From: Fibrobacterota bacterium
GTDB taxonomy: Bacteria > Fibrobacterota > Fibrobacteria > UBA5070
Assembly: GCA_039798065.1 (NCBI GenBank)
Contig: JBDKGS010000001.1
Coordinates: forward strand, 1-61,341
DNA: 61,341 nt
Direction of reading: 5' to 3'
In this document: positions 44,497 through 61,341 of the stretch, piece after piece
Numbering within the stretch: position 1 is the stretch's first letter
Layout of the letters: each line of letters starts with the position of its first letter
Notes under the pieces: model-generated
What the model was told of the DNA's origin: nothing
Databases searched by the model: none
The model's input: only the letters and a program-made list of their open reading frames with translations
Translations under genes and position numbers: made by a program

Positions 44497-45354
44497 TCAA
44501 GCCGTCTGCTGATCCACATCGGCCACGCCACCGACTTCGTCAAGGGTACTGAGGTATTGGAGCAACGCTTCCGCCATCGCGCGGGCCTTCGGTGCCACTT
44601 CGCGGGTGTCCAGCCACCGGCACAAGGCAACCTTCAGCCGCTTGTCTTCAACAACAATCGTTTGACCTTTGCGCTTGTCAGCTATTCCAGCCCCCTCAGC
44701 TCCAGCTTCAATCGAGGCAAGCATCATGTACACGGCCCGACGTGACTTCCCGAGCACCGCAGACAATGCCGGAATCACTGTCCGCTCGCCTTGTTTCGGA
44801 CGACCAACACCGTCGCGATATCCCGCGGCTTTCAGCGTTGTCGCAAGTGCCCTAATTTCTTGCTTAGAAAAGTTGCGTCGCTGACAGTTTTCGGCGACGT
44901 CGATTCCGAGCGCAGTCGATGGATCCGTAACGGAGTCAATCGAAAGCACATGCACCGCCACCGGATTCCCCGAAACCGGGAGCATCCCCAGCCTTTCACT
45001 CATCGCCGGCGACGGATCCGCTTTGAACAACTCCCGCCACACCGATGTACGCTGCTCCTGTGTAGCTGCGATCAGCCGTAGCGCCGCCCAACGGTGACCA
45101 CCGGCAAGCAACCTGTGCTTGGTGTCCACAGCTACCGGCTCGATGAGCCCAAGGGCGACGATGGACTCTGCCAAATCAAGCACATGTACAGTATCGAGCG
45201 ACCGTGTCGCGGGATTGTGACGCGGGCGGATCTCGTGGACCAGTAGCCTGTGCTCCTGTGCATTTGCCAGTACCGCAGTGACATTCTGCTCTTGCTTGTG
45301 CAGCCCTGCTCCGGCCGTCAGCGCACGTCCGAAGACATCGGGCTTCGACTTCAT
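44497..45354 (-). CDS. parB: ParB-like partition / nuclease-domain protein
   Basis: ParB N-terminal domain signature HEIRPRHNPATRSLD..LAESIVALGLIEPVAV..LLAGGHRWAALRL. The start ATG overlaps the parA stop (ATGA 45351-45354). Confidence 0.8.
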   Translation of the reverse strand: MKSKPDVFGRALTAGAGLHKQEQNVTAVLANAQEHRLLVHEIRPRHNPATRSLDTVHVLDLAESIVALGLIEPVAVDTKHRLLAGGHRWAALRLIAATQEQRTSVWRELFKADPSPAMSERLGMLPVSGNPVAVHVLSIDSVTDPSTALGIDVAENCQRRNFSKQEIRALATTLKAAGYRDGVGRPKQGERTVIPALSAVLGKSRRAVYMMLASIEAGAEGAGIADKRKGQTIVVEDKRLKVALCRWLDTREVAPKARAMAEALLQYLSTLDEVGGVADVDQQTA

Positions 45355-46058
45355 TGGACCTCCGTCTGTTCCACAATCCATGACGCGATAACGTCGATGT
45401 CTGCGAGAGCCTTGCTGTGCTGCAACACCGCCGTTGGTGAGCCTTCCGCGAGCGCGCGTTCGAGTCGTGCGTCCTGATGAACGACGAACACGTTCTCGCC
45501 TGGGAATGCGTTCGCGATACCTGCAGTGACGTCACGATGGAGTGCACGGCGAGGATCCACACGAGAGACAACCAACGCACGGCGCTTCACAGCTTCGAGA
45601 GACTGGAGGATCGTCGCTGCGCCGGCGAGACCCAGTGGATGCGGTTCCGTCAGTACCAGCACGACATCCGCGGCGGCGACAACTGCGCGGCTGAGCGCAC
45701 TGGAGCCTGCAGCGGTATCGAAGATGACAACATCGGACTGTACACGAGCGAGAGCACGCCGAAACACATGTTCGTCCACGTTCTGGAGCTGCTCGAGATC
45801 TGGTCCGCCAGCCAGCAGACGCACGCCTGGTTGCGGCTCCTGTACAAGTTCAACCGGCAGGTCACCAGCGGCGAGCCACTGCCCTGCGCCACCGACCAAG
45901 GGATCAACACCCATCGCCAACGCGGCCAAGGATTGTGCATCCAGGTCCGCGAGCAGCACCGAGTAACCCGCATGCGCCAGAATCGATGCGAGCGTGGTCG
46001 CCACGGTTGTCTTACCCACGCCGCCTTTACGGGCTACTACAACAACTGAAATCGCCAT
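45351..46058 (-). CDS. parA: ParA/MinD-family partition ATPase
   Basis: Deviant Walker A ARKGGVGKTT 8 residues after the ATG at 46058 (GGAGG upstream), followed by LLADLDAQ. 235 aa. Confidence 0.88.
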   Translation of the reverse strand: MAISVVVVARKGGVGKTTVATTLASILAHAGYSVLLADLDAQSLAALAMGVDPLVGGAGQWLAAGDLPVELVQEPQPGVRLLAGGPDLEQLQNVDEHVFRRALARVQSDVVIFDTAAGSSALSRAVVAAADVVLVLTEPHPLGLAGAATILQSLEAVKRRALVVSRVDPRRALHRDVTAGIANAFPGENVFVVHQDARLERALAEGSPTAVLQHSKALADIDVIASWIVEQTEVQ

Positions 46059-46096
46059 TTCAATTCCTCCGGTTACGACAGCCGCTCGTGCAGCTG

Positions 46097-46876
46097 CTAT
46101 TGTTTTTCCAGCGCACGCAAGCATCCACACCCATGGTCGAACGCCTCGTGCAGCTGCTGGTGCCAGCGTGTCCAGATCCGAGGTGCGCACGGACTCGGGG
46201 GGCCTTCTCGCAATCCCACGATGAGCTGCGAGAACAACCGATACGGATGCACGTTCAGGCTCTCGTTCGCCAAGATTTTCAACATCAACGCCAGAAGACG
46301 ATCCAATTGCCGTCCGGTGATGACATCCGGGCCTTCCGTCAGGAAACAATCACAACCGTCCAGCCTACCCTGCCGTAAGGTCATGGCCAGTAGCCCGGTT
46401 CTCCATTCATCGTCAGCGTGCTCACCATCGGGCTGGCGGTATACGTACACACACATGGGTTCGCATGGCTCCTTTGCCTTGAGCTGACCCTCAACAAAAT
46501 CCAGCTGCAAGCACTCAGGAGGACATCCCAATGCGTGCAGCAGATAACCGGGATACATATCGTCCTCACGCGGGCGAATCCCGACGATCACGGTTCCAGA
46601 AAACGGAACCAGGCCCTGTTTCCAGCCCAGGATCTCGCCGTCGTGTACAAGGCGCCCACTTCGGAGCACATAGCCACGAGGCTCGCGTGAAGAACCTTTC
46701 CAGGTAACGTACGCCAGACCGCGTTCATCGGCTGGATGGACCGGGCTCCCGTGCACAGCGAGGATGTCGTGATCGACACAATTCAGACAGATACTGTCGA
46801 ATGCGGATGACTTCCCACCAACGTCCAATGGCGTCAAGCATTTGATGTACGCAGGTGGGGCCTTGTATGGCTGCAT
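46097..46876 (-). CDS. hypothetical Cys-rich protein (259 aa), paralogue of 46951..48024
   Basis: Shares FSGT(V/I)IVG, HPY(R/G)L, APR(I/T)WTR(W/H)HQ and C(G/K)CLR(A/T)LE blocks, in the same order, with the upstream gene. Confidence 0.6.
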   Translation of the reverse strand: MQPYKAPPAYIKCLTPLDVGGKSSAFDSICLNCVDHDILAVHGSPVHPADERGLAYVTWKGSSREPRGYVLRSGRLVHDGEILGWKQGLVPFSGTVIVGIRPREDDMYPGYLLHALGCPPECLQLDFVEGQLKAKEPCEPMCVYVYRQPDGEHADDEWRTGLLAMTLRQGRLDGCDCFLTEGPDVITGRQLDRLLALMLKILANESLNVHPYRLFSQLIVGLREGPPSPCAPRIWTRWHQQLHEAFDHGCGCLRALEKQ

Positions 46877-46950
46877 GATGACTTTCCGTATGATCCGTTC
46901 AGAGGAGGTTGTCGTGGATGCACATCACAAACACGCGTTGGTGTTAGTGG

Positions 46951-48024
46951 TTACAGGGACGCACACACGCAGGATTTCGGAATGACACCACCGAGCTCCG
47001 TCCGAACCAGGCTTTCGCCGCGTATGCGCGAGCCGGTCTTTCTGAGCCGATTCAGACGCTGGATCAACGGGCAGTCCCCTGGACACGGATCGCCCTCGCG
47101 ACGGATCGGACAGACACCGGTCTTGGCGATCGGCCAGTGTGCGCCGGGAGCCAGAGCATCCTCCAGCGTACGCAGACATTTACAGTTGTCGATTCGCTCG
47201 TGGATGACCTGATGATGACGCGTCCATGTGCGTGGCGCATCCGCACTCCCCGGCCCGGCCCTCAACCCTCGCAGAACAAGAAGCAGCAGCCCGTAAGGAT
47301 GTGCGTTCGTGTCATCACGCCCGGCGGAGTCGATCAACGTGGCCAGGATCTCGTACAGAGGCTCGCTCGAGATCGGCCCGCGGGCACGAAGCCCCAAAGG
47401 GCACTTACATCCCGCTTCCAGCCAGTTACGTGGTAGCACAGAGTGCAACAGGTTGTACATAAGCTCTTCGCCTGTTTGTGCATTCTCTACCGCCAGCTTG
47501 AGCTGCTCTTCGACTGTGTTCAACGTGTACATGCGCTGTACATCACACAGAGTCTTGGTGAGCAACTTCCCATTTCGGAAGGTCAGCTCAAGGCAGTCCC
47601 GGTGTTCCGTAGATCCTAGCCTCTGATGGCCGAGGTTGAAATCATCCGGGGTGTCCCCGACACCAACGACAATCGTCCCGGAGAAGTACACGATCCGCCC
47701 AATTCCATACCAGCACGCGACACCATCGTCGATCGTACACACGACGCCGTCGATGGTGGGCAATGTCTCCATTCGGCCGGTGGCGCGATCAAGCGCCATC
47801 CGGAATTGAGGGATGTTATCCTCGTCCACGCCTATGCAGGTTTGGATCATGATCAACACCCCATTTTTCAGGGCGTAGCCTACGCTGAACCCGCGGGCGC
47901 AGCCTTCAAACGGCTCGCGAGTAAGGCCTATTTGATCCGGCCGAAAGAGCCCTGCACCTTTGACAGCGAGGATATCGTACACGACCCTCTTGAGACAGAT
48001 TGTGTCAAGGATCTGGTATTTCAT
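46951..48024 (-). CDS. hypothetical Cys-rich protein (357 aa), paralogue of 46097..46876 with extra Cys-rich tail
   Basis: The ATG at 48024 lies 1 nt after the upstream stop (TGA-C-ATG). Same conserved blocks as the paralogue. C-terminal extension GVCPIRREGDPCPGDCP. Confidence 0.6.
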   Translation of the reverse strand: MKYQILDTICLKRVVYDILAVKGAGLFRPDQIGLTREPFEGCARGFSVGYALKNGVLIMIQTCIGVDEDNIPQFRMALDRATGRMETLPTIDGVVCTIDDGVACWYGIGRIVYFSGTIVVGVGDTPDDFNLGHQRLGSTEHRDCLELTFRNGKLLTKTLCDVQRMYTLNTVEEQLKLAVENAQTGEELMYNLLHSVLPRNWLEAGCKCPLGLRARGPISSEPLYEILATLIDSAGRDDTNAHPYGLLLLVLRGLRAGPGSADAPRTWTRHHQVIHERIDNCKCLRTLEDALAPGAHWPIAKTGVCPIRREGDPCPGDCPLIQRLNRLRKTGSRIRGESLVRTELGGVIPKSCVCASL

Positions 48025-48025
48025 G

Positions 48026-48508
48026 TCAAACCTCGACGGCTTCGCCATCGGTGTACACAGAAAGATCACCAGGACGCACAAGCACCGGAAGGCCGTCAAT
48101 AAGGGCCACGCTCCAATCAATTGTCTCGGGTCCCCATGTGACACGGCGGCACAACCGCGACTCGTGTGCGCACTCCAAGGACAGAAGTGTCAGGAGTGGA
48201 AAGAGTGCCTCCCATGCACCGTCATCGCTTCGGCGGAGCGGCCAAATGGTTACACCACCGGCGAGCACGTATTTCCCTGATGGCAAGCACACGGGGTCGA
48301 AGCTGTCACCGCCACCGAGTTCGTCGGACTGTGCGACTTCGATTTCCTCGCTAAAATCGGACACGGGCGCAGGGCCCAACGGCACCGGTGGGATTCCTGT
48401 TTCACCGTCGGCGATACGGGTGTCGACCGGTGGCTTTGGAGGCGTTGCCCGCAAATTCGCTGCGGACATAAGGGTTGTCTTGGGTTTCCTGGGCATAGCA
48501 GACCTCAT
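48026..48508 (-). CDS. hypothetical protein (up to 160 aa), first gene of the par-linked operon
   Basis: The ORF ends 1 nt before the next start. Pro-rich N-terminus. No motif recognised; exact start uncertain. Confidence 0.45.
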   Translation of the reverse strand: MRSAMPRKPKTTLMSAANLRATPPKPPVDTRIADGETGIPPVPLGPAPVSDFSEEIEVAQSDELGGGDSFDPVCLPSGKYVLAGGVTIWPLRRSDDGAWEALFPLLTLLSLECAHESRLCRRVTWGPETIDWSVALIDGLPVLVRPGDLSVYTDGEAVEV

Positions 48509-51583: not shown

Positions 51584-51605
51584 CCATCCGCACAGGACCC
51601 GCACT

Positions 51606-54029
51606 ATGAAATCCATGCTCGCTCTCGCGCTGATGGTGTCGACAGCATCGACGGCGCTCGCAACACCAACGCTCCAGGTCCGAGGCGGCAGTGGATCCGC
51701 TAAGCGCATCCAAGACGCAGTGGATGCTTGTGTGGCCCAAGGCTGCACCATTGAGCTACCCGACCCGAACTACAAGATGGAAGCTCAAGTCTGGATCATC
51801 GGGCACACCGACTTGAGCCTGGTCGGAACTGGGACGACACAGCCTGTGCTGGCCTGGGAGGACTCGCTCCTGGTCCCCGATAGCAGTGGCGTGGCGAAGC
51901 TCTTCCGTTTGAAGCCGCCAACAGGTGCCGGCCGGCCGGATCTTCCTGCTGGCTGGCTGCGATGGCCCATCAGCTACTCCGGTGGAGTCGGCTCTCTACT
52001 GGATACCCTGAATCCCTATTCCAGCTCGGGATTCCAACGTAACGGCATGCTCCTGGTCGAGAACTCCGCGCGAATTCACATCGAAAACCTTGTGCTTGAC
52101 GGACAGAAATCCGCAGCGTTCTACAATCCCTCGATTTGGAACGAAAAGTATCCCGTGCTCCACGGAAGCGTCGGAATCAGCTTGTTCCACAGCTTGGCCG
52201 TCGATGTCCTGCGGTGCGACATCCGTCATTTCTGGTCAGGCCTCTACTCCAACGGTCGTAACGACGCTTGTGCTGCCTGGGGCAACTCCGGCGACCTGAG
52301 CAAATCCAAGAGCCCGATCTGGTCCAACTGCGCGAAGATGGGCGGACATTTGATCGAGCGCAACCGCATCCACGACAACTGGTGGGGCATCTACAGCGAG
52401 ATCGAGTGGGACCAAGGCAGCGTCATCCGCGAGAACCTCGCCTGGAACAACGTCAACCAAGGTCTCCGAAATCCCGCAGGAACAGTCTTCCCTAAGGCCA
52501 TCCTATCCGACTTCGACGTCAAGGCACCGGGAGGATTTCTGTTCGTCAAGGATGTGGTCTTCCCCGCCCACGTGGTGACCAACAACACCATCGTCGAGAC
52601 CATCCTTCCATACGCATGGTCATTTTACAACGCCGCACCCAACGCCCTGTGGTCCGGAAACATCCTGGAAGTTCAGGATACCCTTGGTGGCGCCAATGCC
52701 TCCCTAGACATCCACAATCTGCTTCAGTATGGAAGCTCGCAGCACATCTGGAGCACGGCTCTGCTGCACCACACCACCGCAACGACGACCACCGCGCCAG
52801 CACCGTCGAAGGTATGGGTTGTCGATTCAAGCGTAAGCTTCCTGGCACCGACACCGATCCCCCGTGACACCGTTCATGGTGTGGTCGCAGGAGCGGGGTT
52901 TCTGCTGGTGCCGTTGGACACGTTCGAAGAAATCGTCGGCGGCAAGACCGTACACACAATCGACTTTGACACCTTCTCTGTCCGTTACGACACAGTCATT
53001 CGACTCACAAATTGCGCACGGGGATGCACGCTCCCGCTGGCGTCGACAGCAGCAAGACCTGCAACCTGGCCGAATCTGCCGCTATCTGCCGTTGCTATGC
53101 GCGACTGGTCCCATGGACTCGTCAAGGCACCGGACAGTTCCTTGCAGATCGGGCGCTACATGGACACCACCGTCGCCGACTCCTCATGCGCCATCCGCTT
53201 CCCCGGGCTGGACACTGGCGTTGCACGACTTCAGCGGAATCGGCAATGCCGCAACTGCCAGATTGCGTCCTGGGACCCGAGTAGCACATCCTTCTTGCAA
53301 CCAGTCTGGGGCACGACGCAGGTCGAGGACGCCATCGGTGGTGACACGCACGAGGCACCTCGTGGCGCGATCGGTCGAGATGGAAAGCTCGGCTCTCACA
53401 TGCCGGTTCGGATTCGGGCCACGGGACTTCCGACCTACGACAAGACACATGGCCAACTGCTATTACCGCTCTCGTTTCACTCCGAAGCTGGTGCTGTATC
53501 GAAATTGATCGTGCTTCGCGCTTGGGTGGCCAAGCGCCCTGTGACACAGATCCTGTACGGTTCCGGACTCACGCCTGCTGAGACACGAGTAGCGACGGGA
53601 GCGATTGCGGAGGTCGAAGCGACGGACAGCGTCGTTCATTTGCCGTTTGCGGGACCAGGAAGCGACAGCATCGTCCAAGTCGATCTGTGGATGGCAGGCA
53701 TTTCCGGCTCCGACACGCTTGCGGCAACACCGATGTCTTGGGCTTGGTCGGCCAATGCCGGGGGACGATCGTTCACGGTCGGAAACGCAGCTCGCATTTC
53801 CAGTCAGGAACGACTGAAGCCGATCTTGGTCAGGGATCAACTCGTCCTGCCTGTTTCTAACAGGGCAGCACCGACGTCGATCATGCTGCTTGATGCCAAA
53901 GGAACGCGCATCAGGATTCGCACCTACCTCGACGGGAACACATTAGTCGCCAAACTGTCGGGAGTCCCGCGAGGAATCTGGTTCACGTTCATCCCTGGAT
54001 TTGAGTCGTTTTCTTTCGTGAGAAATTAA
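51606..54029 (+). CDS. secreted right-handed beta-helix protein (807 aa), tandem paralogue of 49214..51583
   Basis: Collinear similarity to the upstream gene along the full length (GGSGSAKRIQDAVDAC..CTIELPD, NRIHDNWWGIYSE, SDTLAATPMSW). Signal peptide MKSMLALALMVSTASTALA. Confidence 0.7.
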   Translation: MKSMLALALMVSTASTALATPTLQVRGGSGSAKRIQDAVDACVAQGCTIELPDPNYKMEAQVWIIGHTDLSLVGTGTTQPVLAWEDSLLVPDSSGVAKLFRLKPPTGAGRPDLPAGWLRWPISYSGGVGSLLDTLNPYSSSGFQRNGMLLVENSARIHIENLVLDGQKSAAFYNPSIWNEKYPVLHGSVGISLFHSLAVDVLRCDIRHFWSGLYSNGRNDACAAWGNSGDLSKSKSPIWSNCAKMGGHLIERNRIHDNWWGIYSEIEWDQGSVIRENLAWNNVNQGLRNPAGTVFPKAILSDFDVKAPGGFLFVKDVVFPAHVVTNNTIVETILPYAWSFYNAAPNALWSGNILEVQDTLGGANASLDIHNLLQYGSSQHIWSTALLHHTTATTTTAPAPSKVWVVDSSVSFLAPTPIPRDTVHGVVAGAGFLLVPLDTFEEIVGGKTVHTIDFDTFSVRYDTVIRLTNCARGCTLPLASTAARPATWPNLPLSAVAMRDWSHGLVKAPDSSLQIGRYMDTTVADSSCAIRFPGLDTGVARLQRNRQCRNCQIASWDPSSTSFLQPVWGTTQVEDAIGGDTHEAPRGAIGRDGKLGSHMPVRIRATGLPTYDKTHGQLLLPLSFHSEAGAVSKLIVLRAWVAKRPVTQILYGSGLTPAETRVATGAIAEVEATDSVVHLPFAGPGSDSIVQVDLWMAGISGSDTLAATPMSWAWSANAGGRSFTVGNAARISSQERLKPILVRDQLVLPVSNRAAPTSIMLLDAKGTRIRIRTYLDGNTLVAKLSGVPRGIWFTFIPGFESFSFVRN

Positions 54030-54576
54030 CACCCCAGTCTCCGAAGAAGAACCATTGGGCCGGCCGAGCCTCAAGCCAGCTCTCCAGACCGGCGAGCGCC
54101 TCCGACACCAGCAACAAGACATCGTCTTCGCCCCAGCGCTCGTCGCCACCAAACAAAGGCGACAACCGGCGATGCATCGGCAAACCCGCGGTTCGGTAGA
54201 TGCGGTACCCTTCCAGGATGATCCCGCGCAGGGTGTCCTCGAACTCCACCGCGGCATCACGCAGCACCTCCACGGTAACACCGGGGCGACCAACAAGTAG
54301 ACCCTCCTGATCGGAAACAGCGCTGACCGCCAAATTCGCCGCGATTTGGAGATGACTCCAGTACCGGACATCATCGACATTGACCCGTATCAAGGACAGA
54401 GCCTGGATGATCTCCTTGTGCCCTGCAAACGGAGCCCCAAATCGCTCTCCGAGCCTCACCGCGTAATATCCCGCGGCGTAGCAGACACGAGCGACCAACT
54501 GCAGCAGTCGATGCTCGATCACAGCTCTGGCCTTGCGTTCCGACCGACGCACGACCACCAAAGTACCGTTGGACAT
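53989..54576 (-). CDS. hypothetical protein (195 aa)
   Basis: The internal ATG at 54576 is chosen because the upstream gene ends at 54672. The 3' end overlaps the convergent beta-helix gene by 41 nt. No motif recognised. Confidence 0.45.
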   Translation of the reverse strand: MSNGTLVVVRRSERKARAVIEHRLLQLVARVCYAAGYYAVRLGERFGAPFAGHKEIIQALSLIRVNVDDVRYWSHLQIAANLAVSAVSDQEGLLVGRPGVTVEVLRDAAVEFEDTLRGIILEGYRIYRTAGLPMHRRLSPLFGGDERWGEDDVLLLVSEALAGLESWLEARPAQWFFFGDWGVNFSRKKTTQIQG

Positions 54577-54671
54577 GTTCAACCTCTTCTTGACGCCTTG
54601 CGAATTCCCACTGACCTGGTCGCCTTGGGACGACACGAGAACACCGGTTCGTTCTGGTGCATTCCAAGCCG

Positions 54672-55280
54672 TCAGCGCACTTGCTTGTACAGATCCGCCA
54701 CTTTTTTCGCAAGACGGGATTTGTCGGCGTCGATGTGATGATGTCGACGACGACGCAACGACTTTTGCTTCAGGTAAGCACGTCCGTCCTCGGTACGAAG
54801 CCATCGGCGCCTCAATTTGCGGGCATGCAGTCGCTCGCGGAGAGGCGTCTGTGTCAGCGCAATCACCTGCACCGGCAACCCACGATCAGCGAGGGCTTGT
54901 TCGATTTCACGCATCGCTGGCGATCGCCGCTCAAGCACACGAATCCTGTGCTCTAAGTTATCAGTGATCGCTGCAAAATCGAAATCGAAGCGTTTACACA
55001 GTAGATGGATTTCTTCTGTGCGTTCGGGGCAAGCAGCCATGGCTTCGTCTTCGTGTTCGTCCAGCAGGTCCAGCAATTCCCCGATTTCGGGAAGGATGAC
55101 CATGTTTGTTGACGCTGAAGGATCTATTTCGCTGGTAATGCGCAAAATCAGATCCGTGATCGCCGACGGATCCCGGTACGGAGTCCCGGCAATTTCACCC
55201 AAGCAAATCAAGTGCTCGTGAGCATATAAGCACAACTCGACGGTGCTGGAGAGAATGGCGTCAGCGATGGTCTTGTTCAT
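54672..55280 (-). CDS. hypothetical protein (202 aa) with highly basic C-terminal tail; paralogue of 56661..57290
   Basis: ATG at 55280 (GAGGAA upstream). Shared C-terminal block ER.HARKLRR.WL..G.AY....RRRRHH.D.D.SR.AK..A.LY. Confidence 0.55.
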   Translation of the reverse strand: MNKTIADAILSSTVELCLYAHEHLICLGEIAGTPYRDPSAITDLILRITSEIDPSASTNMVILPEIGELLDLLDEHEDEAMAACPERTEEIHLLCKRFDFDFAAITDNLEHRIRVLERRSPAMREIEQALADRGLPVQVIALTQTPLRERLHARKLRRRWLRTEDGRAYLKQKSLRRRRHHHIDADKSRLAKKVADLYKQVR

Positions 55281-55704
55281 GGGTTCCTCGTTCGCTGTGG
55301 TTGCGTTTGGAGTTGTCAGATTTTGACAACGGCATTGAGATGTCCAGATCCGTGAGTTGGCGGACCAGTTTGCGGTGTAGCTGCCAAGTCGCAGCCGTAA
55401 GCTTGGTACGGAGGTCGACCCCCGATACATACAGTAAGAGCGAGGCGATAAGGGGCAGGGAGGTCATTTCCGGCGGCGGAAGAATCGGTTCACCTCGCGC
55501 CATCCGTTCTCGCAACTTTTGCGCAGCGGCGTGGTGGCGCTGTTCATTAGCAAAGGCTTCAGTAGGCGACTTTCTGCCGGGACGTAGAGGCATTCCAAGA
55601 GCTACACGACGTCGATACGGCAGCAATTCGCCACCAGTAGTAAGCTCGTATGCTACGGTAGTTAGGTTACGCTTATTCGGGCGGATCATGGTTTGTGGCG
55701 ACAT
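55261..55704 (-). CDS. hypothetical protein (147 aa)
   Basis: ATG at 55704 preceded by AAGGAGG. No motif recognised. Confidence 0.55.
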   Translation of the reverse strand: MSPQTMIRPNKRNLTTVAYELTTGGELLPYRRRVALGMPLRPGRKSPTEAFANEQRHHAAAQKLRERMARGEPILPPPEMTSLPLIASLLLYVSGVDLRTKLTAATWQLHRKLVRQLTDLDISMPLSKSDNSKRNHSERGTHEQDHR

Positions 55705-55962
55705 AGCTCCTCCTTGGTTATAGGCCCAGCGGGTTGCTGGTCCGATGCAACGAATTGCGTATTTATGCTCGCCTGAATCCGCGATGTTTCCCGAATCCCA
55801 TTTGAATCAAACCAAAGAGCCGTCCACGTAAAGGCGCCCCGAATTCACCCTGCAACTCCAACTGCGGTGTACACGCCCCGCCTACTTGCCTACCTTCGTG
55901 AACATGAGCACGAAGCCCAGTGATTCCAAATCCATTCCGACGGCCTCGCCCCTGGAGGCGGC

Positions 55963-56541
55963 ATGAAGGTTCGCGACAGTGGAATGCCCGGCCAGGACAT
56001 GTGGGAGACCTTCTTCGATCCCCTCGATATATTCGACAACCTCGGGCTCGTCGATCCCGCCGGGATCATCGTCGACCTCGGAAGTGGTTACGGCACGTTC
56101 ACTTTGCCAGCTGCCCAGATTTTCAAGAAGTCACAAATCGTCGGCATCGACATCGAACCAGACCTGAACCACGATGTCATTGCCCGTGCACAAGCCGCAG
56201 GCATCAACAACCTGACGACGCGTACTTGCGATTTCGTCCGCGACGGCACCGGGATGGATTCGGATTCCACGGACATGGTTCTCCTTTTCAACATCCTGCA
56301 CGCCGATAACCCCGTTGCCTTGCTCAAGGAGGCGTTTCGAATCCTGAAACCTGGCGCTGTCACTGCGATCATCCACTGGAACTACGATCCATCTACACCG
56401 CGCGGCCCGAGAATGGAGATCCGTCCCAAACCCGACCAAGTGCTGGCCTGGGCTGCACAAGCCGGGTTTGCCGTCCCGGCTTCGGCGATTCCCGTCGCGT
56501 GTTTCCACTACGGCTTCCTCGCCACCAAACTCGACAGCTAA
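55963..56541 (+). CDS. class I SAM-dependent methyltransferase
   Basis: Motif I IIVDLGSGYGTF, post-I IVGIDIE, motif II/III MVLLFNILH..LKPGAVTAIIHW. Substrate unknown. Confidence 0.8.
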   Translation: MKVRDSGMPGQDMWETFFDPLDIFDNLGLVDPAGIIVDLGSGYGTFTLPAAQIFKKSQIVGIDIEPDLNHDVIARAQAAGINNLTTRTCDFVRDGTGMDSDSTDMVLLFNILHADNPVALLKEAFRILKPGAVTAIIHWNYDPSTPRGPRMEIRPKPDQVLAWAAQAGFAVPASAIPVACFHYGFLATKLDS

Positions 56542-56660
56542 CTGCAATCAAACTTCATCAAGCTGTGATCGCCATTGAGATGTGAATCCGCATCTATTCA
56601 AGTTCTGTTTATGCTCCGCTCCTCCGGCGGCGAGAAAGAGCCTCCCGTACATCGTACGAG

Positions 56661-57290
56661 TTAGCGTTCATCGGCATACAATCGGGCCGCTTGCTTAGCG
56701 GTTCGTGAACGATCGCGATCCACGTTGTGATGTCGACGACGACGTTTGGCAAGTTCACGCGTGTACGCCTTTCCTGCCGCAGTGTGCAGCAGCCAGGCCC
56801 TACGTAGCTTTCTAGCATGTGCCCGTTCCGTGCGGGATTTGCGCTGGAAGCCAGAGACCACGACCTTCTCAGTTAGCCCGCGTCGGCCCAGTTCTTCGTG
56901 GAGTTCCTCGGCGAGACTGACTTGACCAGCACGCAGACGAGTCAAGTATGCACGCTGTTGATATGTCGCGAGTACCTGATCAAATGCGGAGCACCTTTTG
57001 TCGTACAAGTCCACGTCAACGTCAGGCTTTCGATCTTGTGCGATCGCAATGACCATCTCCTCGTATGCCTGTATTGAGTCGAGTAAACTGGTCATGGCAT
57101 CGGCATTCGGGAATTCCATGATTTCGATTTGATCCGTAATCTGTTCGATGTACACAAGTACATCCGTCACGTGTTCATGTTCATGGAACGGCACTCCAAA
57201 CAACCTCCCAACGAGTATGACGTGGAGATGAGTCTGCAGAATTATCTCCACGCTTAGGGTCCGGAATTGATCAACGATTGTCTCGTCCAT
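56661..57290 (-). CDS. hypothetical protein (209 aa) with highly basic C-terminal tail; paralogue of 54672..55280
   Basis: ATG at 57290 (GGAGA upstream), chosen by alignment with the paralogue N-terminus (MDETIVD versus MNKTIAD). Same basic C-terminal block. Confidence 0.55.
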   Translation of the reverse strand: MDETIVDQFRTLSVEIILQTHLHVILVGRLFGVPFHEHEHVTDVLVYIEQITDQIEIMEFPNADAMTSLLDSIQAYEEMVIAIAQDRKPDVDVDLYDKRCSAFDQVLATYQQRAYLTRLRAGQVSLAEELHEELGRRGLTEKVVVSGFQRKSRTERAHARKLRRAWLLHTAAGKAYTRELAKRRRRHHNVDRDRSRTAKQAARLYADER

Positions 57291-57514
57291 GTTGTCTCCG
57301 TTTTGTGCCATCGCATAAATGCGATTTCTAGGAGTTACTGCAGTTACGCGTTCACGTTTTCCCAGTAAGAACAAAGCCGGGGCTGTACGCCACCGGCCTT
57401 CTTGTTGATCAACGACACCGAGGTCCCCGCCCACATCGTCGAACACAGACCTGGATGTCATACCGATTGCGCGAACGCTGCCCTGGGTGCGGCGTCGCGA
57501 TTACCCTGTGGTTG

Positions 57515-58363
57515 TCAGCGCTGCCTGCCGAGAAAAAACAGCACCGGATCAAGGATCTCGCCCAGGTGAGCGCAGCAGTCGTCATGCTGGGTGTCCGAGA
57601 GCTGCAATGACGAGAGCATTGCCTCCACGACTTCGGCACCAAGTCCAGTAATCTCTTCCACCTTCACACCCGTAGCACGCTCGAGCAAGCTCGCCATGCC
57701 GGTGGGATTGCAGCTGACTTCGCAGCTGATCAACGAGCATCTGGACCAGTCATTGGCAACAGCTTCAGCCTTCGACACCCAGCGGAACCGGAGCTCGCAA
57801 TCCCCGTTACTCCAGCCGAACGAGTCCTCGTCTCGGACAGGCACGGCAGCGTGCACAAAATCACTCCCCGAGTACATGGTGTCCAAGAAGAGGTGCACTC
57901 TCCAATACTCGAACACATCGCGCAGCGCGGACTCGGAGGTGAGTCCACGTTCACGGGTGTATGTTACACCACGCACAGACTCCGGCACCAGCGTCACGTC
58001 CACGCCAGGTTTGGCAAGCTTCGAGAGCTCGTCGCGGAGATGCTCGCAATAGTGCGAGAACTCATTTTTGTGTTTGCTCAACGTGCTGGCCTCCCAGCGA
58101 GGCAGGCGCCCCGTGACAACCAAGACATCGTTGTCGACGGCGATGGTCAGTGGGTGCTCGTCCCTCTTCGGATGACGTCTGGCATGTTGCCTGGCACGCC
58201 CTGTGTTCGCGAGCAAGTCATCGACAGAAACACCCGCAGGCATACGCAACCCGATGCTGAGTGCGGACATCACCGGATCATCCGAGTCCCTGACATAATC
58301 GCTGATGTTGGCGCTGTCGATGGCGATGACACCGGAAGTACTGGATATGTTGTTGGTGTACAT
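57515..58363 (-). CDS. hypothetical protein (282 aa); paralogue of 58766..59674
   Basis: Shared ordered blocks KPG..V.L.P...RGVTY..ERG, LR..F.YW..HL, FGW....C.L.FRWV..AEA, and AHLG...DP..FF. Confidence 0.6.
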   Translation of the reverse strand: MYTNNISSTSGVIAIDSANISDYVRDSDDPVMSALSIGLRMPAGVSVDDLLANTGRARQHARRHPKRDEHPLTIAVDNDVLVVTGRLPRWEASTLSKHKNEFSHYCEHLRDELSKLAKPGVDVTLVPESVRGVTYTRERGLTSESALRDVFEYWRVHLFLDTMYSGSDFVHAAVPVRDEDSFGWSNGDCELRFRWVSKAEAVANDWSRCSLISCEVSCNPTGMASLLERATGVKVEEITGLGAEVVEAMLSSLQLSDTQHDDCCAHLGEILDPVLFFLGRQR

Positions 58364-58512
58364 GAGCTGCTCCTGGTTGTGGTTGGCGAGCGTTATGGCT
58401 CGTGATATGAATTGCTGTTTTTTTCGAAAAACTTGAGCGACTTGCCCGACAACAAAAGAGGCCGGAGTGTAACCCCAGCCTCCGTGTTCGCGATTCCTGT
58501 TGTGGGCTCAGG

Positions 58513-58707
58513 TCACGCCTTTGTCGACGCCCCCGACTTCTTGCCTCGGGATGCCTTGCTGCCCAGTTCCGCCTTGGCCGGCTTCGATTTCGTCGGCGAC
58601 GCAGCTGAAGACACAGCTTGCTTCGCCGCCTTGTTCATTCCCGAGCGTACCGAGGCTGATGTGGGTGTCGATTGCTTCGACGGCTTCGACGGATTCTTTG
58701 TGTTCAT
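58513..58707 (-). CDS. small Lys/Ser/Ala-rich basic protein (64 aa)
   Basis: ATG at 58707 preceded by AGGAGA. MNTKNPSKPSKQSTPTSASVRSGMNKAAKQAVSSAASPTKSKPAKAELGSKASRGKKSGASTKA. Low complexity with a histone-H1-tail-like composition. Confidence 0.5.
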   Translation of the reverse strand: MNTKNPSKPSKQSTPTSASVRSGMNKAAKQAVSSAASPTKSKPAKAELGSKASRGKKSGASTKA

Positions 58708-58765
58708 GTTCTTCTCCTGTGTTCGCGTGAATGGGCCAATCACGGCCTCACGAGGAATTGCCTGA

Positions 58766-59674
58766 TCACCGGTTCAGTCCGAAGAATGTCATCGGATCCA
58801 CAACACCACCGAGATGGGCGGTTCTGGTGTTGCTGTCGGCACACCAATCGAGCACACGGAACATGCGACGCATGGCGTCCACGGACTTGCCGACGGCTTC
58901 GTGGGCGCAGAGAGATTCTTCGACCCCCAGCCTCAGCAGCCGTTCCAGGACGTCATCTGCAAATCCGACGTCACAGGCAATGAGTGCGTGCGACGCAAGC
59001 CTGGATTCCATGGCTTCCGCCTGCGTCACCCAGCGAAAAATGAGGCTGCACTCGCTGGAACGCCAGCCGAACTCATTGTCCTCGACAACCCGCTCCAACC
59101 CCTCGCCGAAGACCTCGAGGGCGTCAAGAAGCTCGATGTCCAAGTGCAGGGACCAGTATTGGAACAGCTCTCGGAGTGACACGGCGTTCGCCCAGCCGCG
59201 CTCCGCGCGGTACGTTACACCGCGCATCCAGCCCGGTGTCAGGTGAACGTAAGCCCCGGGTTTGGCCACCGCAGCCAAGGCCGCCTCGATGACATCGAAG
59301 TGCTGGTCGAGCTCACAGTCACGTTTGATGTTGATATTAGGGCCGATCCACTCACCTTGCAGTGGACCTTCCACGGACAGGCACCCCTCGTCGACATCAA
59401 ACGTATACGTGAGGTCAGGGTACATGCTCTTCAGGATCTGCTCCCGCTCGTTGGACGCGACGAAGGCATCGTCCACGGCGACTCCCGCGGACAGCTCCAG
59501 ATCCATGGCGATTTCGACGATGTAGGGTTCGCCTTGGCGCCGGGCGCATGCCAGCAGCTCCGTACGGTCAACGGAGATGTATGTGGGTTTCGCGCCGTTG
59601 ACCGCGTGTACATGCGGTGTCGCGTTGTCGGTGTTGTTGTCGGCGATGCTGATGTCGGCGTCGGTCGTGGTCAT
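58766..59674 (-). CDS. hypothetical protein (302 aa); paralogue of 57515..58363
   Basis: Same conserved blocks as 57515..58363. ATG start. Confidence 0.6.
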   Translation of the reverse strand: MTTTDADISIADNNTDNATPHVHAVNGAKPTYISVDRTELLACARRQGEPYIVEIAMDLELSAGVAVDDAFVASNEREQILKSMYPDLTYTFDVDEGCLSVEGPLQGEWIGPNINIKRDCELDQHFDVIEAALAAVAKPGAYVHLTPGWMRGVTYRAERGWANAVSLRELFQYWSLHLDIELLDALEVFGEGLERVVEDNEFGWRSSECSLIFRWVTQAEAMESRLASHALIACDVGFADDVLERLLRLGVEESLCAHEAVGKSVDAMRRMFRVLDWCADSNTRTAHLGGVVDPMTFFGLNR

Positions 59675-59885
59675 GGTTTGCTCCGGAGTTGGTGTTCGCG
59701 GACAGGGCCGGGATGGCCCCTGCTAGTAGTTGCTGACTTTCAGAGAATTTTCGTAAAGACAGATTCTGCCATCAGATTCCACCCGTATCCGCACGCAACA
59801 CCGACGCGTTTCACACGCGTCCATAGACATCCTCTTACTCAGGCCCACCGCACCGTAACGGAGTTCATCGCGGCCTCGAACAGCA

Positions 59886-60449
59886 TCAGTCCCCAGCGTA
59901 CGCCGTTGCTTGACCTGCGTAGTACCTCGTTGCGGCTTCGTAATCCGCAACCACCTCAGGACACGCGCCTTCAATCTGTGTTCGCTTCCGCAGGCGGATA
60001 TTGAGATCGGCCTCGGCGCACAGGAACTGCCGAGGCGAGAATGCTTCCGTCGCTGCGTGCCAGCTGTGAACGACCAGCGTGGTCACGCACAGATTCAGAC
60101 TGGATCCTGGCAACGCCAAGGCGGACAAAGACGACGCCAGCAGTGGCGCCAACGCCAGGAACACATCGCCGTTGGTCATCCGGATCCCTGCCTCGAGCAC
60201 ACCTCCGACAGCCTGGACGTCGACAACGATCTTGCGTGCGTGGACAAGCACTGAGATCTTGGAACGACCACAGTCGACTGAGATGGCCGGAGCGTTGACA
60301 AGATCACCGAAGACACCATGGAGGTCCGGTCGTTGGTAGTCGACCATGTGGATGATGCAGTGACCGACCACAGGCTCTTCGCCCACGCCCCGGATCTGTC
60401 GACCGAGGCTGAAGATGTCGACGGTCACGTTAGGGTGTTGCTGATGCAT
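59886..60449 (-). CDS. hypothetical protein (187 aa)
   Basis: ORF with an ATG start, co-directional with its neighbours. No motif recognised. Confidence 0.45.
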   Translation of the reverse strand: MHQQHPNVTVDIFSLGRQIRGVGEEPVVGHCIIHMVDYQRPDLHGVFGDLVNAPAISVDCGRSKISVLVHARKIVVDVQAVGGVLEAGIRMTNGDVFLALAPLLASSLSALALPGSSLNLCVTTLVVHSWHAATEAFSPRQFLCAEADLNIRLRKRTQIEGACPEVVADYEAATRYYAGQATAYAGD

Positions 60450-60572
60450 TCAGTGCTCCTGGTGTTGTGTGCAGCGTCTGGCACGTGGTGTAGTGGTATT
60501 TACAAGAGCAGCTCTTTCGTCCAGCTCGAACGTGGATCCCTGGTTCTGACACAGCGGCTTCGACTACAACGT

Positions 60573-61325
60573 TCACGCCGCAACTCGGCCTTCACCGGCA
60601 GCGCGTACGCGTGGCGGCGGCGCCACCGCGAGCAACAGCGGTGTGCGCGTACACGCACGCCGCAGCGCCTTCGGCGACAACACCGGCGTCGCCCATCGCT
60701 GCCGATCCCGGGCATCAGCGGCCACAGCCACATCAATGCCGCGTTGGCCGAGCGCCTTCGCAACTGCTGTTGAACCAGCGACGACCCGACCACTGATCCA
60801 GGCGTGGAAAGCACGCGCTACCGCGGGCGTCAGATCCGCCGGCGCCAACACGCACCGCGTTGACCGGAAGTGCTGCATGTCCTCAAGCAAGGGTTCCAGC
60901 TTTCGACCGAGCAGGAGCTCATGCTGGGTGTCGAGCTCGCGCACACTCCACTTCGGTCGCCTGGTCTTGTTCGTAACGATACCGAGCATGTCTTTGTACA
61001 CGGACATGCGGACAGTCAGCGTGCTCGAACGCTCTGCTTTTTGTGGGGCAGCTCGCAGCTCCAACGTCGACACTCGGCCATGGACCGTACGTGAAGGTGC
61101 GGGCACTGTGATACACCGACAGCCATGGTCACACACGACGTCGGCGCAGATGGATTCCAGGTACCTCATCCACTGCTGAAGAGACTGAGGCACGGTTTCG
61201 CCGTCGTAGGTGAGCATGTACTCGATGACAGCATGCTCCAGTAGCTGAGCCGGATCCAGCCGTACGCCCGGAACATTCCGGAGGCGATCATTCATCGCCT
61301 CCGCCATCGCAACGACACTTTCCAT
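60573..61325 (-). CDS. hypothetical protein (250 aa)
   Basis: ORF with an ATG start, co-directional with its neighbours. No motif recognised. Confidence 0.45.
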   Translation of the reverse strand: MESVVAMAEAMNDRLRNVPGVRLDPAQLLEHAVIEYMLTYDGETVPQSLQQWMRYLESICADVVCDHGCRCITVPAPSRTVHGRVSTLELRAAPQKAERSSTLTVRMSVYKDMLGIVTNKTRRPKWSVRELDTQHELLLGRKLEPLLEDMQHFRSTRCVLAPADLTPAVARAFHAWISGRVVAGSTAVAKALGQRGIDVAVAADARDRQRWATPVLSPKALRRACTRTPLLLAVAPPPRVRAAGEGRVAA

Positions 61326-61341
61326 CGGTGTCGATGTCGCG

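What the first reader, a model, noticed from the sequence alone, without database searches (positions are those of the whole stretch)
53989..61325. 7-kb block of unknown genes organised as paralogue pairs, possibly a duplicated module of unknown function
Seen: nine minus-strand ORFs, interrupted only by one + strand SAM methyltransferase (55963..56541). Pair A is 54672..55280 and 56661..57290, with similar acidic N-domains and an almost identical, extremely basic tail (ER.HARKLRR.WL..G.AY..RRRRHH.D.D.SR.AK..A.LY). Pair B is 57515..58363 and 58766..59674 (KPG..V.L.P...RGVTY..ERG, FGW....C.L.FRWV..AEA, AHLG...DP..FF). Several have good Shine-Dalgarno sites. I recognise none of the families. Inference: a locally duplicated multi-gene module on a probably mobile (par-linked) segment. 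Such paralogue-rich unknown blocks are typical hiding places for defence or anti-defence, toxin-antitoxin or plasmid-establishment functions, and the Arg-rich tail suggests nucleic-acid binding.
Basis: inference. Interest (0 to 1): 0.6.

Follow-up and report, generated by a model that had tools for sequence, protein, structure and literature searches.

The report
Rolling-circle mobile element with paralogue families
The 7-kb block of unknown genes is the inner part of a rare mobile DNA element of uncultured Fibrobacterota that copies itself with a filamentous-phage-type replication protein, and several of its "unknown" genes look like disarmed copies of that protein.

Summary
There are nine minus-strand genes and one plus-strand SAM methyltransferase. 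The pairs are real paralogues: A1/A2 are 31% identical (E 3e-29) and B1/B2 32% (E 1e-35). No Pfam, PHROG, NCBIfam, PADLOC or PDB match exists apart from the methyltransferase.

The window is a whole MAG contig that breaks inside the last gene. A 119.6-kb metagenome contig of the same organism carries the identical genes. It continues straight into a Phage_CRI (M13 gene II type) rolling-circle initiator with intact RxD, YxKxxE and xRxE motifs.

Rep, o10, o3 and A recur together in at least four lineages, three of them with a P4-type integrase. Rep, full-length A and a linked p118/p397 pair occur in the same 3 of 296 Fibrobacterota species genomes. The block is therefore part of a patchily distributed rolling-circle element that lies next to parAB.

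The duplications are of single genes, not of a module. The ORF at 53989-54576 is a third, tail-less A copy. The stretch o9-B2-o7-B1-A2-MT is lineage-specific cargo.

Profile comparisons suggest, without proving, that o10, o9 and B1/B2 derive from Rep and lack its catalytic tyrosine. There is no evidence for a defence function. I rate it a new variant of a known kind, of moderate interest.

The parts
53989..54576 (-). o1, 195 aa. A third, tail-less member of family A and the positional counterpart of a full-length A-like gene in relative L033.
   Evidence: BLASTP to A2 gives E 0.02 in register. tblastn of o1 hits the N-domain of the L033 207-aa A-like protein at E 1.6e-5. hhalign against the A profile gives E 1.3e-3. 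It has no basic tail.
54672..55280 (-). A1, 202 aa. Acidic helical N-domain plus an Arg-rich C-terminal tail.
55261..55704 (-). o3, 147 aa, basic (pI 10.7). A core element gene that lies next to A in every lineage.
   Evidence: Homologues in G282, G281, L020, L032 and L033
55963..56541 (+). Class I SAM-dependent methyltransferase, 192 aa, of small-molecule/RNA type. It has no DPPY-type DNA methyltransferase motif. It is cargo.
   Evidence: It is 92% identical in L016.
56661..57290 (-). A2, 209 aa. Paralogue of A1. The AlphaFold2 model is confident and all-helical.
   Evidence: (pLDDT 89.6, pTM 0.77)
57515..58363 (-). B1, 282 aa, acidic. Candidate Rep-derived protein without the catalytic motifs.
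58364..58540 (-). Conserved spacer, 90-98% nt identity between element variants while the flanking B genes are 60-75%. It holds a terminator-like hairpin at 58483-58457.
   Evidence: MFE z -3.1
58513..58707 (-). o7, a 64-aa Lys/Ser/Ala-rich basic ORF. It is uncertain as a gene, because an antisense ORF is also open in both variants.
58766..59674 (-). B2, 302 aa. Paralogue of B1.
59886..60449 (-). o9, 187 aa, with one hydrophobic segment near residue 96. It resembles the first ~140 residues of Rep.
   Evidence: (dN/dS 0.29)
60573..61341 (-). o10, cut by the contig end (full length 331 aa). A core gene that starts at or over the stop of Rep. Its C-terminal half resembles the C-terminal region of Rep.
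46951..48508 (-). Outside the finding: the p118-like and p397 pair. It travels with the element in other lineages.
44497..46876 (-). Outside the finding: p259 (a paralogue of p397), ParA and a ParB-like gene.

Best explanation
SHOWN. The block is the inner part of a mobile-element-derived region of about 20 kb. The element's hallmark gene is a Phage_CRI (M13 gene II / Rep_trans-like) rolling-circle initiator. It lies just past the end of the window, on contig C43 of the same MAG.

The element family has a conserved core: Rep, then o10, then a variable slot, then o3 and A, then a p118/p397 pair. Relatives also carry a P4-type tyrosine integrase. The window copy has no integrase nearby and sits beside parAB.

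The paralogue pairs are element-specific families made by single-gene duplication. A1, A2 and o1 form one family. B1 and B2 form another. The stretch o9-B2-o7-B1-A2-MT fills the variable slot as lineage-specific cargo.

INFERRED. Rep nicks an origin in the 300-nt near-invariant, repeat-bearing region upstream of its gene and drives rolling-circle copying of the excised or episomal element.

o10 shares Rep's C-terminal region but not its active site, and it is coupled to Rep's stop codon. It would act as a Rep partner or brake, as gene X protein does for gene II protein in Ff phages.

The A proteins would bind the element's DNA, probably the single strand, through the Arg-rich helical tail. The acidic four-helix bundle would mask or regulate that tail.

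o9 and B1/B2 would be further tyrosine-less Rep derivatives that bind Rep or origin-like DNA. They would set copy number or shut out related elements.
For: Adjacency. The identical A2 protein lies on a 119.6-kb JGI contig whose gene order is Rep (PF05144), o10 (331 aa), o9, B2, B1, A2, MT, o3, A1, o1, p807, p789. In the MAG, Rep sits at the very start of contig C43.

Rep identity. PF05144 scores 30-35 bits against a cut-off of 21.7. The motifs RID, YCKSVE and IRIE match the Rep_trans/Phage_CRI motifs RxD, YxKxxE and xRxE described in PMC5714925.

Recurrence. G282 and G281 carry int, p133, Rep, o10, o3, A, p139. L032 has the same order. L033 carries int, p488, Rep, o10, o3, A, A. L020 carries Rep, o10, two other genes, A, o3, p118, p354. 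L016 is a 60-90% identical copy of the window's arrangement.

Distribution. The Rep profile, full-length A and p397 are each found in the same 3 of 296 Fibrobacterota species genomes.

Candidate origin. Identity between L014 and L016 jumps from about 45% to 93-100% over the 300 nt upstream of Rep, a stretch that carries direct and inverted repeats.

Rep-derived paralogues. hhalign gives Rep~o10 probability 47%, E 2e-4 over 210 colinear columns. It gives Rep~B E 1.8e-3 over 226 columns and Rep~o9 E 1.8e-3 over 100 columns. These are the three best of 55 family pairs. No reversed control and none of 40 column-shuffled controls reaches the observed scores. A Rep HMM run against all 28,553 six-frame ORFs of the MAG ranks B1 third and o9 eighth, behind only Rep and a 509-aa Rep paralogue. 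After one iteration the o10 orthologues of four lineages are the top outsiders. An independent language-model search put B2 near a cluster of rolling-circle replication-associated proteins (score 0.91).

A protein. The tail has pI 11.8-11.9 and the N-domain pI 4.5-4.7. The helical model is confident.
Against: No HMMER hit of B, o9 or o10 to Rep is significant on its own (E 0.1-6). Pfam PF05144 and PF23343 do not detect them. B, o9 and o10 do not detect one another. Shared amino-acid composition within one element could inflate ranks. The AlphaFold2 model of B is poor (pLDDT 54), so the fold could not be compared.

The A fold matches nothing informative in PDB, BFVD or the ESM Atlas, so DNA binding rests on charge alone.

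The window copy has no integrase within contigs C1 or C43. I found no att repeats. This copy may therefore be immobile.

I have no direct evidence of excision, circular forms or single-stranded DNA.
Confidence: 0.6

Rival explanations
1. The variable stretch (o9, B2, o7, B1, A2, MT) is a defence, anti-defence or exclusion cargo island carried by the element. B1/B2 would be its effectors, unrelated to replication.
For: The stretch sits in a slot whose content differs in every lineage. B1 and B2 are far more diverged between two otherwise close element variants: 60-63% aa identity and dS 0.73-0.90, against 85-92% and dS 0.13-0.41 for their neighbours. This mosaic pattern is common for conflict genes. 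A methyltransferase lies in the same stretch, with a weak PADLOC domain match to mad2.
Against: No PADLOC, Pfam or NCBIfam defence or toxin family matches B, o9 or o7. dN/dS of B is 0.30-0.33, which indicates purifying and not diversifying selection. The methyltransferase is of the small-molecule type and reads the opposite way. The best sequence leads for B point to Rep.
Confidence: 0.2
2. The region is the provirus of an undescribed single-stranded-DNA virus. Its virion proteins are among the unknown families (p397, p118, B, o9), and A is the genome-coating protein.
For: The Rep family is that of filamentous phages. The G282 core element is 6-12 kb, in the size range of ssDNA phages. A has a strongly basic tail. 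The tail motif weakly matches the N-terminal part of a T4-type head scaffolding protein (P0043; E 2.6e-4, phrog_237). o9 has one membrane-like segment.
Against: No Zot/pI morphogenesis ATPase is found in any of the 10 genomes of the genus. No PHROG structural family is hit. There are no relatives in IMG/VR or in 50,697 phage records. There is no run of small hydrophobic coat genes. The window copy carries parAB, which is typical of plasmids.
Confidence: 0.12
3. These are ordinary lineage-specific chromosomal genes that merely lie beside a decayed Rep gene, with no functional link.
For: The window copy has no integrase or att sites. Host-type secreted beta-helix genes sit in the middle of the region.
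Against: There is strict co-occurrence and conserved order with Rep across at least four lineages, and presence in only 3 of 296 genomes. All genes are under purifying selection, and Rep keeps all its catalytic motifs.
Confidence: 0.06

Closest known systems
Ff (M13/f1) replication module: gene II protein with gene X protein
   Same: The initiator belongs to the Phage_CRI family. A second protein sharing the initiator's C-terminal region but not its nicking site is made right beside it. Here that protein is o10, whose start abuts or overlaps the Rep stop. The role of gene X protein as a regulator of gene II protein is from my own knowledge.
   Different: o10 is a separate, highly diverged gene and not an in-frame internal start. 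The homology is only probable (hhalign 47%). No coat or assembly genes follow.
RS1 satellite of CTXphi (rstR, rstA, rstB, rstC) in Vibrio cholerae (from my own knowledge)
   Same: An integrated element with a Phage_CRI-type Rep and a few small genes, without morphogenesis genes.
   Different: It uses XerCD, not its own tyrosine integrase. Apart from Rep, none of its proteins is detectably related. No helper filamentous phage is detectable in this genus.
pDolos, a rolling-circle plasmid that acts as a satellite of the inovirus Dolos (bioRxiv 10.1101/2023.11.28.569023)
   Same: A small rolling-circle replicon without virion genes that could spread by hijacking a helper.
   Different: pDolos is an autonomous plasmid with a demonstrated helper. 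Here the element is chromosomal or within a large contig, has integrase-bearing relatives, and no helper is known.
Actinomycete integrative and conjugative elements (AICEs, pSAM2 type; PMC3218068)
   Same: An integrase combined with a rolling-circle Rep in a small integrated element. That survey lists PF05144 among its Rep markers.
   Different: No FtsK/SpoIIIE-type transfer gene is present here. The phylum differs and all accessory families are unrelated.
pT181-family Rep_trans initiators (PMC4797284; motifs in PMC5714925)
   Same: Rep carries the RxD, YxKxxE and xRxE motifs.
   Different: The Pfam assignment is Phage_CRI, not Rep_trans. There was no BLAST-level match to any of 72,556 plasmid records.

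Membership tests
Phage_CRI / Rep_trans-like rolling-circle initiators (applied to the element's Rep, on contig C43 next to the window) | Pfam PF05144 match above the curated cut-off | tested here: met
   30.1-34.7 bits against a cut-off of 21.7
Phage_CRI / Rep_trans-like rolling-circle initiators (the element's Rep) | Motif I RxD, motif III YxKxxE with the catalytic Tyr, and motif IV xRxE (PMC5714925) | tested here: met
   RID, YCKSVE and IRIE, conserved in six Rep orthologues
Phage_CRI / Rep_trans-like rolling-circle initiators (the element's Rep) | Site-specific nicking of an origin | not testable with these tools
   Only a candidate origin is known: 300 nt at 93-100% identity, with repeats, upstream of Rep.
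Phage_CRI-derived proteins (applied to o10, o9, B1, B2) | Detectable homology to a Phage_CRI protein | tested here: inconclusive
   There is no Pfam hit. hhalign to the element's Rep gives E 2e-4 (o10) and 1.8e-3 (B, o9), above all controls. HMMER ranks are 3 and 8 of 28,553 ORFs, but at E 2-6.
Phage_CRI-derived proteins (applied to o10, o9, B1, B2) | Catalytic YxKxxE and RxD motifs | tested here: not met
   In the hhalign alignments B has FRW-type residues opposite the Tyr motif. o10 has a gap there. o9 ends before it.
Inovirus (filamentous) prophage | Zot/pI-type morphogenesis ATPase (PF05707) | tested here: not met
   No match in any of the 10 genomes of the genus. No conserved Walker A motif in the block proteins.
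Inovirus (filamentous) prophage | Run of small hydrophobic coat genes after the replication module | tested here: not met
   The intergenic gaps are too short. Only o9 has a single hydrophobic segment.
Integrase-dependent integrative element | Tyrosine recombinase adjacent to the element | tested here: not met
   Relatives have one: G282, L032 and L033 carry Arm-DNA-bind_3 + Phage_int_M + Phage_integrase. This copy has none on C1 or C43.
Known anti-phage defence systems (PADLOC-DB 2.0) | Match of any block protein to a defence-system model | tested here: not met
   Only a generic methyltransferase-domain match (mad2, E 2.7e-15) and chance-level Cas1 tail matches.
ParABS partition locus (neighbouring genes) | Adjacent ParA ATPase and ParB-like protein | tested here: met
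   ParA at 45351-46349 (Pfam AAA_31/CbiA; phrog_164, E 1e-32). ParB-like at 44497-45381 (phrog_3264, E 3e-9). parS was not searched.

The most novel reading that the evidence does not exclude
The region is the provirus or episome of an undescribed lineage of single-stranded-DNA elements of Fibrobacterota. It would build its whole toolkit from novel proteins: a genome-coating protein (A) with an Arg-rich tail, unknown particle or transfer proteins (p397, p118), and a set of disarmed copies of its own initiator (o10, o9, B1, B2, and the 509-aa protein on C43) that control replication or exclude rival elements.
Probability: 0.12. Interest if true: 0.8.

Novelty: new variant of a known kind. Interest (0 to 1): 0.5.

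Why it matters
Fibrobacterota have almost no described mobile elements or phages. This gives a defined, recurring element family with a recognisable replication engine and a conserved set of dark-matter genes (A, o3, o10, p118, p397). That places five to seven families with no annotation into one testable functional context.

If the Rep-derivative reading holds, it would show an initiator gene being repeatedly duplicated and disarmed inside its own element. That is a route to replication control or incompatibility which is known in miniature from gene X of Ff phages, but which I know of nowhere as a multi-gene expansion.

The finding is not evidence for a new defence system.

Tried and rejected
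Family scans. Pfam, PHROGs, NCBIfam and PADLOC gave nothing for any block protein except the methyltransferase. Profile searches of the A, B and o10 alignments against PDB sequences found nothing below E 0.008.

Structures. The AlphaFold2 model of B was poor (pLDDT 54), and its fold search returned only short helical hairpins with Z below 6. The A model was confident, but Foldseek against PDB and BFVD, the ESM Atlas shape search and VIA-wide gave only generic helical bundles (best E 0.47; best Z 9.0, to a designed cage). The ESM Atlas feature search gave no usable hit for o10.

Collections. Rep has no tblastn match in the phage or plasmid collections. The Rep and A alignments found no relatives in IMG/VR, and the A alignment none in genome contigs.

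Boundaries. I found no tRNA genes and no flanking direct repeats that could serve as att sites. There was no overlap between the end of C1 and the start of C43, and the short ORF piece at the C43 edge could not be matched to G282 o10. Adjacency was settled instead by the JGI contig.

Other checks. Whether o7 or its antisense ORF is the real gene stays unresolved; dN/dS is 0.77 against 0.49. Rfam had no credible match. I considered p282 (the zinc-finger-like gene upstream of Rep) as a second initiator, but hhalign gave no support. No complex-prediction job was sent, because I make no binding claim that it could settle.


Full report
1. OBSERVATION

The region holds nine minus-strand ORFs and one plus-strand gene at the stated coordinates. 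A1 and A2 are 31% identical (E 3e-29). B1 and B2 are 32% identical (E 1e-35). Both pairs carry the quoted motifs. An all-against-all BLAST also links the first ORF (o1) weakly to the N-domain of A.

The plus-strand gene is a class I SAM methyltransferase. No other protein matches Pfam, PHROGs, NCBIfam or PADLOC. GGAG-type ribosome-binding sites precede nearly all starts.

Between two diverged copies of the element, dN/dS is 0.17-0.34 for Rep, o10, o9, B2, B1, A2 and MT. These are therefore genuine genes under purifying selection.

2. WHERE THE WINDOW SITS

The window is the whole of contig C1 of a 417-contig, 82%-complete MAG. Public records of its relatives name the organism as Fibrobacterota.

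The contig ends 16 nt upstream of the ATG at 61325, and the frame stays open to the end. The identical A2 protein lies on a 119.6-kb JGI contig, fetched as locus L014. There the block continues, in the direction of transcription, from a 409-aa protein with a Phage_CRI domain. The order is Rep, o10 (331 aa), o9, B2, B1, A2, MT (opposite strand), o3, A1, o1, then the two beta-helix genes of the window.

In the MAG, the same Rep lies at the very start of contig C43. C1 and C43 are therefore neighbours.

3. THE REP

PF05144 is matched above its cut-off in three lineages. An alignment of six orthologues conserves RID, YCKSVE and IRIE. These are the RxD, YxKxxE (catalytic Tyr) and xRxE motifs that PMC5714925 gives for Rep_trans and notes in the M13 and Cri phage initiators.

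Upstream of Rep, nucleotide identity between L014 and the diverged copy L016 jumps from about 45% to 93-100% for 300 nt. That stretch carries direct and inverted repeats. It is my origin candidate.

4. RECURRENCE

G282 is a complete 5.8-Mb chromosome of the same genus. It carries a P4-type integrase, a 133-aa protein, Rep, o10-like, o3-like, A-like and a 139-aa protein. G281 has the same Rep, o10-like, o3-like and A-like genes in that order, and L032 repeats the G282 order from the integrase on.

L033 has a Rep 70% identical to the window lineage. It carries integrase, p488 (opposite strand), Rep, o10, o3, an A1-like gene and a second full-length A-like gene. Nothing lies between o10 and o3.

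L020 carries Rep, o10, two unrelated genes, A, o3, p118 and p354. L016 repeats the window's arrangement at 60-92% protein identity.

The core is therefore Rep-o10-[variable slot]-o3/A. In the window lineage the slot holds o9-B2-o7-B1-A2-MT.

o1 occupies the place of the second A gene of L033 and hits its N-domain (E 1.6e-5; hhalign E 1.3e-3). It lacks the basic tail. It is a third, truncated member of family A.

5. DISTRIBUTION

Among 296 Fibrobacterota species genomes, the Rep profile is found in 3 and full-length A in the same 3. B is found in the window's own genome only.

The protein at window 46951-48144 (p397) is also found in exactly those 3 genomes. Its small upstream partner accompanies it in each. 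In L020 the pair directly follows o3. In the window it lies 6 kb away, beyond the two beta-helix genes. It is followed by a p397 paralogue, ParA and a ParB-like gene.

The element-derived region therefore spans roughly 44.5 kb to the contig end, plus the first part of C43 (at least through p282; p175 and the 509-aa Rep paralogue lie further in, at 5.3-7.7 kb).

Family A has only 36 representatives at E<1e-3 among 1.84 billion clustered proteins, and the distant ones share little beyond the tail. Family B and Rep have 4 and 6 members in the 5.8-billion-protein collection. The family is rare.

6. WHAT THE UNKNOWN PROTEINS MAY BE

A: The AlphaFold2 model is confident (pLDDT 89.6, pTM 0.77). It shows an acidic helical bundle, a poorly ordered linker and three basic helices. 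It has no informative structural neighbour. The tail has pI about 11.9.

o10, o9 and B: In an all-against-all hhalign of eleven element families, the three best pairs all involve Rep, and each is colinear. They are Rep 104-344 with o10 69-293 (probability 47%, E 2e-4), Rep 41-277 with B 47-277 (E 1.8e-3), and Rep 39-141 with o9 21-123 (E 1.8e-3, 26% identity). The reversed control and all 40 column-shuffled controls score far lower: 16-24 against 30-39.

A Rep HMM run against all 28,553 six-frame ORFs of the MAG ranks a 509-aa protein on C43 second (E 2e-13, a clear Rep paralogue). B1 ranks third and o9 eighth, though at E 2-6. After adding the paralogues, the o10 proteins of four lineages become the best outsiders, at E 0.11-4.5, all on the C-terminal region of Rep. 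Separately, a language-model feature search placed B2 near a cluster of rolling-circle replication-associated proteins (score 0.91, a lead only).

In the alignments, B, o9 and o10 lack the RxD and YxKxxE motifs. I read these as probable, not proven, disarmed derivatives of the initiator.

7. MECHANISM PROPOSED

Shown: the element's membership, its core, its distribution, and an intact Rep.

Inferred: Rep nicks the conserved upstream region and drives rolling-circle copying. o10 modulates Rep, as gene X protein does for gene II protein in Ff phages. A coats or condenses the DNA through its tail. o9 and B1/B2 act on Rep or on origin-like DNA to set copy number or exclude relatives.

B1 and B2 are much more diverged between L014 and L016 than their neighbours, in both dN and dS (dS 0.73-0.90 against 0.13-0.41), while dN/dS stays near 0.3. 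This points to allele exchange and not to positive selection, and fits a specificity determinant.

8. RIVALS

A defence or anti-defence cargo reading cannot be excluded, but it has no positive support. A true ssDNA provirus is possible. However, no Zot-type ATPase exists in the genus, no structural family is hit, and no relatives appear in the viral collections. A chance juxtaposition of ordinary genes is contradicted by the co-occurrence data.

9. LIMITS

The ends of the element are not defined, because I found no att repeats. This copy has no integrase nearby. No read-level test for circles could be run. The o7 ORF is uncertain.

10. VERDICT

The finding is a new variant of a known kind, an integrative or episomal rolling-circle element with an inovirus-type initiator, built otherwise from unannotated families. 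Interest is moderate.

Noticed in passing
G000 contig C43 6145-7674 (-), = L012:6145-7674: A 509-aa protein with no Pfam hit is a clear paralogue of the element's Rep (HMM E 2e-13). It keeps RLD and IRLE but not the full YxKxxE motif. G281 has a similar extra Rep paralogue at L010 5494-6774 (+), E 2e-7.
   Followed up: partly
L014:4334-4633 (= G000 C43, upstream of Rep): A 300-nt non-coding stretch is 93-100% identical between two element variants, while the adjacent p282 side is about 45%. It holds two copies of TACCGTATCGATACC and nearby GGAGTGGAATTCC inverted repeats. It is a candidate replication origin.
   Followed up: partly
window 58364-58540 (-): The spacer between o7 and B1 is 90-98% identical between variants, although both flanking B genes are 60-75%. 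It contains a 12-bp-stem terminator-like hairpin (58483-58457) that extends to a longer stem. The MFE z-score is -3.1.
   Followed up: partly
window 46097-48508 (-): p397 and p259 are paralogues (E 9e-21). The p118-like/p397 pair travels with the Rep element in G282, G281 (two copies) and L020. p397 has a Cys-rich C-terminus and matches no family.
   Followed up: partly
L014:165-692 (-), L009:9319-9738 (-), L009:13709-14110 (-): A family of small element proteins (p175, p139, p133). Each has a short N-terminal beta-like domain, a helix-turn-helix-like segment and Lys/Ala-rich histone-H1-like tails. They are likely DNA-binding regulators or excision factors.
   Followed up: no
P0043 (404 aa, metagenomic): The basic tail motif of family A weakly matches (E 2.6e-4) the N-terminal part of a T4-type head scaffolding protein (phrog_237, E 3e-75). 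The match is Lys-rich and may be compositional.
   Followed up: partly
L014:3187-4035 (-), L033:2320-3786 (-), L016:263-1954 (-): A conserved gene reads away from Rep (p282, p488, p563; 33-34% identity over the first 220 aa). It has an N-terminal Cys cluster that looks like a zinc finger, and matches no family.
   Followed up: no
window 49214-54029 (+): Two tandem secreted paralogues (43% identity) of a multi-copy family of this genus sit inside the element-derived region, on the opposite strand.
   Followed up: partly
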